From: Escherichia coli
Lineage (GTDB): Bacteria; Pseudomonadota; Gammaproteobacteria; Enterobacterales; Enterobacteriaceae
DNA length: 64,000 nt
Assembly: GCF_044647545.1 (NCBI RefSeq)
Contig: NZ_CP172818.1
Direction: 5' to 3' (one strand)
In this document: positions 22,001-25,000 of the stretch, in pieces
Position numbering within the stretch: position 1 is the stretch's first letter
Layout of the letters: each line of letters opens with the position of its first letter
Made by a program: the position numbers

Positions 22001-25000
22001 ACCTGCTCACCGCCTACAAATTCGGGGTCAAAACGCTGTATTATCAGAACACCCGTGACGGTGCTGAAGACGCACAAGACGATCTGGTGCCGTCAATCCA
22101 GGACGATGGCTGCGAAAGCGGCGCATGTAAGATCTGATTTTGAGATGCCGGATGCGGCAACGCCTTATCTGGCCTACGGCTCGGTTTGTAGGCCTGATAA
22201 GACGCGCCAGCGTCGCATCAGGCACAGGATGCGGCGTAAAATGCCTTATCCGGCATTAAACTCCCAACAGGACACATTCATGGCATATACCACCTTTTCA
22301 CAGACGAAAAATGATCAGCTGAAAGAACCGATGTTCTTTGGTCAGCCGGTCAACGTGGCTCGCTACGATCAGCAAAAATATGACATCTTCGAAAAGCTGA
22401 TCGAAAAGCAGCTCTCTTTCTTCTGGCGTCCGGAAGAAGTTGACGTTTCTCGTGACCGTATCGATTACCAGGCACTGCCTGAACACGAAAAACACATCTT
22501 TATCAGCAACCTGAAATATCAGACGCTGCTGGACTCCATTCAGGGTCGCAGCCCGAACGTGGCACTGCTGCCGCTGATCTCGATCCCGGAACTGGAAACC
22601 TGGGTCGAAACCTGGGCGTTCTCAGAAACGATTCATTCCCGCTCCTATACCCATATCATCCGTAATATCGTTAACGATCCGTCAGTTGTCTTTGACGATA
22701 TCGTCACTAACGAGCAGATCCAGAAACGTGCGGAAGGGATCTCCAGCTATTACGATGAACTGATCGAAATGACCAGCTACTGGCATCTGCTGGGCGAAGG
22801 CACCCACACCGTCAACGGTAAAACCGTGACCGTTAGCCTACGTGAGCTGAAGAAAAAACTGTATCTCTGCCTGATGAGCGTTAACGCGCTGGAAGCGATT
22901 CGTTTCTATGTCAGCTTTGCTTGTTCTTTCGCATTTGCGGAACGCGAACTGATGGAAGGCAACGCCAAGATTATTCGCTTGATTGCCCGTGACGAAGCCC
23001 TACACCTGACCGGCACCCAGCATATGCTGAATCTGCTGCGCAGCGGCGCGGATGATCCGGAGATGGCGGAAATTGCCGAAGAATGTAAGCAGGAGTGCTA
23101 TGACCTGTTTGTCCAGGCGGCACAGCAAGAGAAAGACTGGGCGGATTATCTGTTCCGTGATGGTTCGATGATTGGTCTGAATAAAGACATCCTCTGCCAG
23201 TACGTTGAATACATCACCAATATCCGTATGCAGGCAGTCGGTTTGGATCTGCCGTTCCAGACGCGCTCCAACCCGATCCCGTGGATCAACACCTGGCTGG
23301 TGTCTGATAACGTGCAGGTTGCTCCGCAGGAAGTGGAAGTCAGTTCTTATCTGGTCGGTCAGATTGACGCGGAAGTGGACACCGACGATTTGAGTAACTT
23401 CCAGCTCTGATGGCCCGCGTTACCCTGCGCATTACTGGCACACAACTGCTGTGCCAGGATGAACACCCTTCCCTTCTGGCGGCGCTGGAATCCCACAATG
23501 TGGCGGTTGAGTACCAGTGCCGCGAAGGTTACTGCGGCTCCTGTCGCACCCGACTGGTCGCAGGCCAGGTGGACTGGATTGCCGAACCGTTAGCTTTTAT
23601 TCAGCCGGGGGAAATTTTGCCCTGTTGTTGCCGGGCAAAAGGCGATATTGAAATCGAGATGTGAATTGGTTTTAACGCCAGATACGACGCTTATACGTCT
23701 TATCTGGCCTACAACGATTACATAGCGTAGTAATATGCTTTCACCTGCTCCCAGTCCGCTTTGGGGATCGGCTCCAGATATTTTTCCAGCTGGCGGAAGT
23801 CATGATTAATCGCTTTATCACGACGCAAGCGGCGACGACTTTTCTCCAGGTCAAGAAATCCAGCTTCTGCCTTACCTTCTGTTTTCACATAGATATGGCG
23901 AACATAACAACAGCCATGCTGACGATTAACGCTATGCATTTTCTTAAACGCCAGCGCCACTGCTTTCAACATGGCTTGCCGTACTTCGTCAGAATAAGGC
24001 GATACTGCATGCCGGGCATACCAGTCAGCAATGCTGATGAACCCCGCCATATCTTCAGTCACCAGCAACGCGCGCCATTCCCCCTCAATTTTCACCGCTT
24101 CACCAAAAACGATCTTCGGCACGATGACACCAGCCCGTTCCAGTTCTTTAATTACCGCAACCTCACGGACAATCGTTGGTCGACCGAACGGATAACGTAC
24201 GGAATGAAACAGATGATGCGTCATGCGCTTTACATATAGCTTTTTGCCGTTGCGCTCGACGCATTGCACCCCGCTCATACCATTACGGCGATAGTTAGGC
24301 TCTTCAACCCAGTCGCCCTCTGTTGCCCACCAGTGATTAAATTCGTCGTGCTTTGCTGAAACTGCCATACCCTATCGCCTGTCATTTTTTATTTACGACA
24401 ATGACTATAGGTGGTTACCTGCGAAAAATCTTAATGAAACGTGTCGTATTAATGAATTTCTTTTGCCGCTACTAGCATGACACCGCTTTTGCCCTTCATT
24501 TGCAGCGCATAGACTCCACCAGCCACTACCACTAATAGTGCACCCAGCAGATAAAATATGAATTTAATCACCCGGATACAGCGATCAGTTTTATTCGACA
24601 GGGATTAGGCATCGCCTTATTACCAGAGTTAACGCTGAAAACCATTGCAGATGAATTGTGTTCCGTTCCTCTCGAACCAACCTTCTATCGACAGATTTCG
24701 TTGCTGGCTAAAGAAAAGCCGGTAGAAGGCAGTCCACTGTTTTTACTACAAATGTGCACAGAACAATTAGTGGAGAGTGGAAAATTTGATATGAGACAGG
24801 ATGGCGCATGAACGCCATCCTGCAGTAGCATTACTCTTTATTAAGGAATTTTACTGCCTTATCAGGGAAATCAGTAAACAGCCCATTTACACCCGCTTTG
24901 TTATACAGAGCATCATATAACTGATTCACATCAGTAGTGTATTCAGGCAGCTTATCTGACCGCACGGTGTAAGGATGCACTACCAGTTTATTCTGCTGAG

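What the first reader, a model, noticed from the sequence alone, without database searches (positions are those of the whole stretch)
24369..24830. LysR-family gene remnant (yfaH) between inaA and glpQ
Only the C-terminal roughly 80 codons of a LysR-type regulator remain, with no HTH domain or start codon in frame upstream. The roughly 190 bp before it is a decayed sequence (24,369-24,559) that may hold further remnants. A palindrome caggatggcg...cgccatcctg (about 24,798-24,826) overlaps the remnant's stop.
Basis: partly seen in the sequence, partly recalled or inferred. Interest (0 to 1): 0.25.

Follow-up and report, generated by a model that had tools for sequence, protein, structure and literature searches.

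The report
Deletion scar: LysR and transporter gene stubs
The stretch between inaA and glpQ is the scar of one 1,879-base deletion that left only the tail ends of two neighbouring genes, a LysR-type regulator (called yfaH in E. coli K-12) and a transporter; this is an ordinary, already annotated pseudogene, but here the deletion seems to have happened a second time, independently.

Summary
Window 24548-24811 (+) encodes the last 87 codons of a 299-aa LysR-type regulator. It has no HTH domain and no start codon, and stop codons lie just upstream. It is the positional and sequence equivalent of the K-12 pseudogene yfaH.

The "decayed 190 bp" is not decayed. It consists of the native 80-bp inaA spacer plus the last 34 codons of a divergently transcribed MFS transporter gene on the minus strand (24449-24555).

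Both stubs come from a single 1,879-bp deletion between two 8-bp direct repeats (CAGATAAA; one copy remains at 24548-24555). The deletion removed both 5' gene portions and the shared promoter region. The intact gene pair is ancestral: 1,217 E. coli genomes and other Escherichia species keep it.

The palindrome (24797-24822) is a stable hairpin just after glpQ, probably the glpTQ terminator.

One oddity stands out. The window is essentially identical to ST648-like genomes that all keep the intact pair. It also lacks every SNP linked to the junction in the old, widespread K-12-type deletion allele. So the same deletion appears to have arisen again recently.

Verdict: known pseudogene, low interest.

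The parts
23718..24368 (-). inaA (lipopolysaccharide kinase), intact left-flanking gene (context)
   Evidence: ORF; 216/216 aa identical to inaA of strain SWHEFF_68; annotated in all relatives.
24369..24448 (-). Native 80-bp spacer between the start of inaA and the stop of the former MFS gene. It is not decayed sequence.
   Evidence: 100% identical to the same spacer in intact-allele strains L002 and L007. The spacer is also kept, at 85% identity, in the 'empty' allele L003.
24449..24555 (-). 3' remnant of an MFS transporter gene: stop codon at 24449-24451 and residues 363-396 of 396
   Evidence: 34/34 aa identical to the C-terminus of the 396-aa MFS_1 protein of L002. PGAP marks the same stretch in other strains as 'incomplete; missing N-terminus'.
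24548..24555 (.). Deletion junction: the single surviving copy of the 8-bp direct repeat CAGATAAA
   Evidence: In intact alleles the repeat occurs twice, 1,879 bp apart (L002 4126-4133 and 6005-6012). It extends to ACCCAGCAGATAAA / ACCCCACAGATAAA, 12 of 14 (family D7, 60).
24548..24811 (+). 3' remnant of a LysR-type regulator gene (yfaH equivalent): codons 213-299 and the TGA stop at 24809-24811
   Evidence: 88/89 aa identity to the intact 299-aa protein. Pfam LysR_substrate only, no HTH_1. NCBIfam NF007272 (YfaH) above cutoff. K-12 pseudogene yfaH maps to window 24584-24789.
24797..24822 (.). Perfect 10-bp-arm palindrome (hairpin) between the convergent LysR remnant and glpQ; probable glpTQ terminator or 3' stabiliser
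   Evidence: Found. RNA fold gives -23.7 kcal/mol and z = -5.1 on the glpQ strand. A hairpin sits at the same place after glpQ in alleles L003 and L009 with different stem sequences. The simple terminator scan did not call it because there is no U-tract.
24831..25907 (-). glpQ, intact right-flanking gene (context)
   Evidence: 358/358 aa identical; annotations.

Best explanation
The inaA-glpQ spacer is a deletion scar. The ancestral locus carried a divergently transcribed pair: an MFS transporter gene (minus strand, just upstream of inaA) and a LysR-type regulator gene (plus strand, convergent with glpQ). A single 1,879-bp deletion between two 8-bp direct repeats (CAGATAAA) removed three things: MFS codons 1 to about 362, the 151-bp shared promoter region, and LysR codons 1-212, which include the whole HTH DNA-binding domain. 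What remains is 34 MFS codons (24449-24555, minus strand) and 87 LysR codons (24548-24811, plus strand).

Neither stub has a promoter, ribosome-binding site or start codon, so both are inert pseudogene fragments. The LysR stub is the one named yfaH in K-12.

The inferred mechanism is RecA-independent slippage or illegitimate recombination between the short direct repeats, which keeps one repeat copy.

The palindrome is not part of the pseudogene. It is the hairpin that follows glpQ, and it is probably the terminator of glpTQ. In the intact allele it would also end the convergent LysR gene.

Sub-claim (about 0.75): in this genome the deletion is a recent, independent repeat of the same event that long ago produced the widespread K-12-type allele.
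For: Identity of the stubs.

Deletion size and junction: the window is colinear with intact alleles except for 1,879 bp bounded by CAGATAAA.

Intact state is ancestral. The order yfaE-inaA-MFS-LysR-glpQ-glpT is found in Escherichia sp. MOD1-EC7003, E1V33 and E. whittamii. The order yfaE-(inaA)-MFS-LysR is found in Kluyvera and Pseudocitrobacter.

Population of 5,426 complete E. coli genomes: about 3,075 carry the deletion allele, 1,217 carry the intact pair, and 1,058 carry a larger 'empty' allele that still holds vestiges.

Other independent inactivations of the pair: IS1 and IS5 insertions (H37 and H67), an internal stop, and an IS1-adjacent deletion.

Independent origin of the window's deletion:
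- The window is about 100% identical over 1-20000 and 25000-45000 to ST648-like genomes.
- Against IMT16316 over 19108-26226 it differs by one mismatch, one small indel and the deletion. Those relatives are intact.
- All 10 other deletion alleles sampled share 24514T, 24571G, 24586G and 24588A. These are absent from 6 intact haplotypes and from the window.
- The window equals an in-silico deletion of L002.

Hairpin.
Against: The slippage mechanism is inferred from the junction anatomy only.

An identical junction arising twice is unexpected. The intact spacer holds 61 exact direct-repeat pairs of 8 bp or more, and 21 of them would cut both genes. CAGATAAA is among the shortest and the second most widely spaced, so chance reuse is roughly 0.02-0.05.

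The window-type allele was found nowhere else. No complete E. coli genome matches above 98.2% over the full length. No exact metagenome hit was found. The junction-spanning ORF is not on record.

The hairpin lacks the U-tract of a textbook intrinsic terminator, and no 3'-end data were available.

K-12 'yfaH' appears in one expression table (PMC9600279), so the region may be transcribed in K-12.
Confidence: 0.9

Rival explanations
1. The window's deletion allele is the same old allele as in K-12, inherited or moved in by homologous recombination rather than formed anew.
For: The junction is nucleotide-identical to K-12, USML2 and FHI_NMBU_03. FHI_NMBU_03 (L006) shows such transfer does happen: it has an ST648-like haplotype carrying a patch of about 0.5 kb of old-allele SNPs around the junction. 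An identical junction by chance is only about 2-5% likely.
Against: The window carries none of the old-allele SNPs. These include 24542G, 6 bp left of the repeat, and 24558G or 24560T, 3-5 bp to its right. Both crossovers would therefore have to fall within about 15 bp of the junction. That is far below the homology RecA needs (established knowledge).
Confidence: 0.07
2. The deletion is not biological. It could be an assembly or consensus artefact (for example a reference-guided build on a genome with the K-12-type structure) or a laboratory edit.
For: The allele is unique to this sequence in every collection searched. Its structure equals that of the most common reference genomes. yfaH has been used as a neutral engineering site in K-12 (PMC2714960).
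Against: The window follows ST648 structure, not K-12. It lacks yfbN-yfbP and is only 94.7% identical to K-12 over 22 kb with 41 gaps, yet it matches IMT16316 in one piece. There is no FRT or cassette scar at the junction. De novo assemblers do not collapse 1.9 kb of unique sequence at an 8-bp repeat (established knowledge).
Confidence: 0.12
3. The LysR stub is a functional small gene (YfaH, as once annotated in K-12), or the 40-codon minus-strand ORF across the junction (24449-24571) is a new small membrane protein.
For: NCBIfam keeps an 'equivalog' model for the 68-aa YfaH, and the stub scores above its cutoff. All old deletion alleles share the SNPs that create the ATG. K-12 yfaH appears in an expression table. 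The 40-aa ORF is hydrophobic.
Against: The window has no ATG at the K-12 start position (ATC). No promoter-like site was found in 24200-25000. The old alleles show non-synonymous changes and a frameshifting 1-bp indel near the 3' end, and they differ from one another by up to 28 of 352 positions against at most 16 among intact alleles. RefSeq marks the stubs as pseudogenes. No gene with the 40-aa product is on record, and no Shine-Dalgarno-like sequence precedes its GTG.
Confidence: 0.03

Closest known systems
E. coli K-12 pseudogene yfaH (b2238), between inaA and glpQ
   Same: Same locus, same 1,879-bp deletion junction (CAGATAAA), and the same LysR C-terminal fragment. It hits the YfaH NCBIfam model above cutoff.
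   Different: The window differs from the K-12-type allele (USML2) at 48 positions in 1.4 kb. It lacks the derived ATG (ATC here) and the 1-bp insertion that shortens the K-12 ORF, so its frame runs on to the ancestral stop at 24811. Its flanks are those of an intact ST648-like allele, which points to a separate origin.
Intact LysR-type regulator WP_000176734.1 with divergent MFS transporter WP_077516358.1 (strains SWHEFF_68, CFSAN061771; IMT16316 carries the same LysR protein with MFS transporter WP_000660220.1)
   Same: The remnants are 88/89 and 34/34 aa identical to the C-termini of these two proteins. The flanking DNA is 100% identical.
   Different: The intact genes have HTH_1 plus a full LysR_substrate domain, and a complete MFS_1 fold. 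The window keeps 29% and 9% of them respectively. The function of the intact pair is unknown: all specific NCBIfam models score far below their cutoffs.
Short-direct-repeat (microhomology) deletions by replication slippage or illegitimate recombination
   Same: Two direct repeats in the parent, one copy left in the product, and nothing foreign at the junction.
   Different: Mechanistic factors (RecA independence, strand bias) could not be tested. The repeat is short (8 bp) and distant (1.9 kb), which makes recurrence at this pair unexpected.
Rho-independent terminators between convergent genes
   Same: A GC-rich 10-12-bp stem 9 nt downstream of the glpQ stop. The hairpin position is kept across alleles with different stem sequences, and allele L009 has a canonical stem plus U-tract there.
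   Different: In the window the stem is not followed by a U-run on either strand, and the consensus scan did not call it.

Membership tests
LysR-type transcriptional regulator (LTTR) | N-terminal winged helix-turn-helix (Pfam HTH_1, PF00126) | tested here: not met
   No HTH_1 hit in the remnant. The intact orthologue has HTH_1 at residues 3-63. tblastn finds only residues 211-299 in the window.
LysR-type transcriptional regulator (LTTR) | C-terminal effector-binding domain (Pfam LysR_substrate, PF03466) | tested here: met
   31.7 bits against a cutoff of 28, but only profile positions 131-189 of 209 are present. It is a fragment of the domain.
LysR-type transcriptional regulator (LTTR) | Complete ORF of about 300 aa with its own start codon and promoter | tested here: not met
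   87 codons only. TAA and TAG stops lie 3 codons upstream. The first in-frame start is a TTG at 24656. No promoter-like site was found.
YfaH (NCBIfam NF007272 / PRK09729; K-12 b2238) | Sequence match above the curated cutoff, at the inaA-glpQ locus | tested here: met
   143.9 bits against 139. Same flanking genes as K-12.
YfaH (NCBIfam NF007272 / PRK09729; K-12 b2238) | The 68-codon ORF starting at the K-12 ATG | tested here: not met
   The window reads ATC AGT where K-12 reads ATG AAT. The K-12 stop comes from a 1-bp insertion that is absent here.
Major facilitator superfamily transporter | 12-helix MFS_1 fold (PF07690) | tested here: not met
   The 40-aa ORF gives no Pfam hit. Only the last 34 residues of a 396-aa MFS_1 protein remain.
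Microhomology-mediated deletion | Direct repeat at both deletion ends in the parental allele, with a single copy at the junction | tested here: met
   CAGATAAA occurs at L002 4126 and 6005, 1,879 bp apart, in 7 intact alleles. One copy lies at window 24548-24555.
Intrinsic (Rho-independent) terminator | GC-rich stem-loop | tested here: met
   10-12 bp stem, -23.7 kcal/mol, z = -5.1.
Intrinsic (Rho-independent) terminator | U-rich tract directly after the stem; mapped RNA 3' end | tested here: inconclusive
   No U-tract by the scan's criteria. 3'-end mapping cannot be done with these tools.

The most novel reading that the evidence does not exclude
The 8-bp repeat pair CAGATAAA...CAGATAAA is a preferred deletion site. 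On this reading, the same 1,879-bp deletion that became fixed long ago in a large part of E. coli (the K-12-type yfaH allele) has arisen again, recently and independently, in an ST648-like strain. That would make this locus a natural example of parallel, junction-identical gene loss.
Probability: 0.3. Interest if true: 0.35.

Novelty: already known. Interest (0 to 1): 0.15.

Why it matters
As a feature it matters little. It is an inert, already annotated pseudogene fragment, and the analysis mainly corrects its anatomy: two stubs of one deletion rather than one stub plus decayed DNA.

It is useful for annotation. The minus-strand MFS stub and the hairpin after glpQ should not be read as parts of yfaH.

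The locus is also a tidy record of reductive evolution. E. coli holds three major states (intact, 1.9-kb deletion, near-complete loss) plus IS hits and point inactivation.

If the apparent second origin of the identical deletion is real, the locus would be a convenient natural test case for how predictable microhomology deletions are.

Tried and rejected
- Rfam scan of 24200-25000 at E <= 1: nothing.
- Consensus promoter and terminator scan: nothing.
- Exact look-up of the 40-aa junction-spanning ORF in public assemblies: not on record.
- Exact 90-bp window-type junction in metagenome contigs: 0 hits. A relaxed junction pattern gave 8 contigs, all of the old K-12 type.
- Reference-guided-assembly artefact on K-12: rejected. 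The window follows ST648 structure where the two differ (no yfbN-yfbP) and is only 94.7% identical to K-12 on the left.
- Import of the K-12-type allele by recombination: rejected on flanking SNPs.
- A special status for the CAGATAAA repeat: not found. It is not the longest or closest repeat, and no inverted repeats bring the two copies together.
- A new promoter created at the junction: none seen by eye or by scan.
- Specific function for the intact pair: NCBIfam gives only sub-threshold matches (GltC, CidR, CynR; generic MFS efflux models).
- The extra 356-aa gene that O157-type alleles carry next to the palindrome: no Pfam domain.
- Literature: yfaH appears only as a neutral marker site and in gene lists.
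- A marbox or inaA promoter within 24369-24560 was considered but not tested.

Full report
**Locus.** The window carries nrdA-nrdB-yfaE, then inaA (23718-24368, minus strand), a 463-bp spacer (24369-24830), and glpQ-glpT (glpQ 24831-25907, minus strand). This is the E. coli inaA-glpQ region. In K-12 MG1655 the only feature annotated in this spacer is the pseudogene yfaH (b2238).

**Checking the observation.**
- The frame ending at TGA 24809-24811 encodes 89 residues from 24542. They match residues 211-299 of an intact 299-aa LysR-family regulator at 88/89.
- Pfam finds only the distal part of the LysR_substrate domain (profile positions 131-189 of 209, 31.7 bits, cutoff 28) and no HTH_1. The intact orthologue has HTH_1 at residues 3-63 and a full substrate domain.
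- NCBIfam's 68-aa YfaH model (NF007272) is hit above its cutoff (143.9 against 139).
- Upstream in frame are TAA and TAG at 24533-24538. The first in-frame start codon is a TTG at 24656.
- tblastn with the intact protein finds no N-terminal segment anywhere in the 64 kb.
- The palindrome is real: 10-nt perfect arms at 24797-24806 and 24813-24822, a 6-nt loop, and the stop codon inside the loop.

**What the "decayed 190 bp" is.** Complete E. coli genomes show an intact form of the locus: inaA, then an MFS transporter (396 aa, minus strand), then a LysR regulator (299 aa, plus strand), then glpQ. The two middle genes are divergent and share a 151-bp intergenic region.
- Window 23600-24555 is 100% identical to that allele in strain SWHEFF_68, and 24542-25000 is 99.6% identical.
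- 24369-24448 is therefore the ordinary 80-bp spacer between inaA and the MFS gene.
- 24449-24555 (minus strand) is the stop codon plus the last 34 codons of the MFS gene, matching 34/34.
- Nothing here is decayed. It is the other edge of the same lesion.

**The lesion.**
- Relative to every intact allele examined, the window lacks exactly 1,879 bp.
- In the intact sequence the deleted segment is bounded by the 8-bp direct repeat CAGATAAA. With flanks this reads ACCCAGCAGATAAA / ACCCCACAGATAAA, 12 of 14 matching.
- One copy remains at 24548-24555.
- The deletion removed MFS codons 1 to about 362, the divergent promoter region, and LysR codons 1-212.
- This anatomy is the signature of short-direct-repeat (slippage or illegitimate) deletion. 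The mechanism itself is inferred, not tested.

**Polarity (which state is ancestral).**
- The intact order yfaE-inaA-MFS-LysR-glpQ-glpT is present in three other Escherichia lineages: sp. MOD1-EC7003, sp. E1V33 and E. whittamii.
- The order yfaE-(inaA)-MFS-LysR is present in Kluyvera and Pseudocitrobacter.
- The pair is therefore ancestral and the short spacer is derived.

**Population picture.** Among 5,426 complete E. coli genomes:
- About 3,075 carry the 1.9-kb deletion allele.
- 1,217 retain at least 80% of the deleted segment.
- 1,058 carry a still shorter 202-bp spacer that keeps recognisable vestiges of both ends.
- Further independent hits on the pair include IS1 and IS5 insertions, an internal stop in the regulator and an IS1-adjacent deletion.
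- The module is evidently dispensable and is lost repeatedly.
- Its function is unknown. Only generic or sub-threshold family matches were obtained.

**The palindrome.**
- On the glpQ strand it folds into a 12-bp stem (-23.7 kcal/mol, z = -5.1) that starts 9 nt after the glpQ stop.
- Alleles with different local sequence also place a strong hairpin at the same spot. L003 has different stem bases. The divergent L009 has a canonical stem plus U-tract.
- I therefore read it as the glpTQ 3' hairpin (terminator or stabiliser), shared with the convergent LysR gene in the intact allele, and not as a feature of the pseudogene.
- It lacks a U-tract in the window and was not called by the consensus scan, so this reading stays an inference.
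- In O157-type alleles an extra segment of about 1.7 kb, with a domain-less 356-aa ORF, abuts the left arm of the palindrome.

**An unexpected point: the deletion looks independent here.**
- The window is essentially identical to ST648-like genomes such as IMT16316 and ECONIH1: 100.0% over 1-20000 and over 25000-45000.
- Against IMT16316 over 19108-26226 it shows one mismatch and one small indel, apart from the deletion.
- All of those relatives carry the intact pair.
- No complete genome holds the window's allele. The best full-length match is 98.2%.
- Ten other deletion alleles were sampled: K-12, USML2, FHI_NMBU_03 and seven metagenome contigs. All have the same junction and share derived bases 24514T, 24571G, 24586G and 24588A.
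- Those bases are absent from six intact haplotypes and from the window. The window equals an in-silico deletion of the intact SWHEFF_68 allele.
- Old-allele SNPs lie as close as 6 bp left and 3 bp right of the repeat, so recombinational import of only the junction is not credible.
- FHI_NMBU_03 shows what real transfer looks like: a patch of about 0.5 kb of old-allele SNPs in an otherwise ST648-like haplotype.
- The two derived SNPs 24586G and 24588A are exactly what creates the ATG of the annotated K-12 yfaH ORF. The window reads ATC AGT, so that ORF does not exist here.

**How surprising is a second identical event?** The intact 2,341-bp spacer contains 61 exact direct-repeat pairs of 8 bp or more, and 21 of them would truncate both genes. 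CAGATAAA is among the shortest and the second most widely spaced. Chance reuse is about 2-5%.
- I found no structural feature that would favour this pair.
- The alternatives are an assembly or engineering artefact, or an unsampled donor.
- A K-12-guided consensus is unlikely because the window follows ST648 structure where K-12 differs.
- Every E. coli genome search over the flanking core genes reported 5,425 of 5,426 genomes matched. This suggests the source genome is a member of that collection that is withheld from the search, and hence a deposited complete assembly.
- I rate an independent, recent deletion at about 0.75, an artefact at about 0.12 and transfer at about 0.07.

**Verdict.** The feature is a known, inert pseudogene scar (K-12 yfaH). 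The literature mentions yfaH only as a neutral marker site or in gene lists. Interest is low. The only point of note is the apparent junction-identical recurrence of the deletion.

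Noticed in passing
window 24366-24384; L002 3944-3962 and 5215-5233: In the intact allele, inaA and the MFS gene share a 19-nt direct repeat (18 of 19) covering each start codon plus 16 nt of leader: CATACCCTATCGCCTGTCA and CATACCCTACCGCCTGTCA. Two adjacent same-strand genes thus have near-identical translation-initiation regions. This pair is also a better deletion substrate than the one actually used (family D2).
   Followed up: no
window 24584-24589 against K-12 (L005 3688-3693): The ATG of the annotated K-12 yfaH ORF is created by two SNPs (ATCAGT to ATGAAT). All 10 old deletion alleles sampled share them, and all intact alleles and the window lack them. Whether their fixation is drift or selection for expression of the stub is open. 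The other changes look like neutral decay.
   Followed up: partly
window about 24798-24801; L001 11383-13093, L008 3722 onward: O157-type and several other alleles carry an extra segment of about 1.7 kb between the LysR gene and glpQ. It abuts the left arm of the palindrome and encodes a 356-aa hypothetical protein with no Pfam domain. That ORF is often frameshifted. Some deletion-allele genomes also break homology at this point (H16 and H17).
   Followed up: partly
window 14444-14559: Between ubiG and gyrA, strain CFSAN061771 has a 3.75-kb island (frameshifted GntR regulator, MFS transporter, mandelate racemase-family enzyme). It is absent from the window and from K-12.
   Followed up: no
window about 62384-62398: The K-12 genes yfbN-yfbO-yfbP (about 2.6 kb between yfbM and nuoN) are absent from the window, as in CFSAN061771. 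A small indel relative to CFSAN061771 lies at the same spot.
   Followed up: no
window 32515-32680 and 32734-32875: Two adjacent segments of about 150 bp cross-match each other at 82% in the glpC-yfaU interval. K-12 has rpnE and the pseudogene ypaA there, and CFSAN061771 has an ISNCY-family transposase plus a partial gene.
   Followed up: no
window 24333-24344 and 24560-24571: A perfect 12-nt inverted repeat (GTGATTAAATTC / GAATTTAATCAC) links the 5' coding end of inaA to the sequence 5 bp right of the deletion junction. It is also present in the intact allele, 2.1 kb apart. No role was identified.
   Followed up: no
whole window (searches of E. coli genomes): Searches with universal core genes report 5,425 of 5,426 genomes matched. 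This suggests that one genome, probably the window's source, is withheld from the collection.
   Followed up: no
window 24449-24800 equivalents in L004-L006 and L017-L024: Old deletion alleles differ from one another by up to 28 of 352 positions across the two stubs, against at most 16 among intact alleles. This is consistent with relaxed constraint and great age of the K-12-type deletion.
   Followed up: partly
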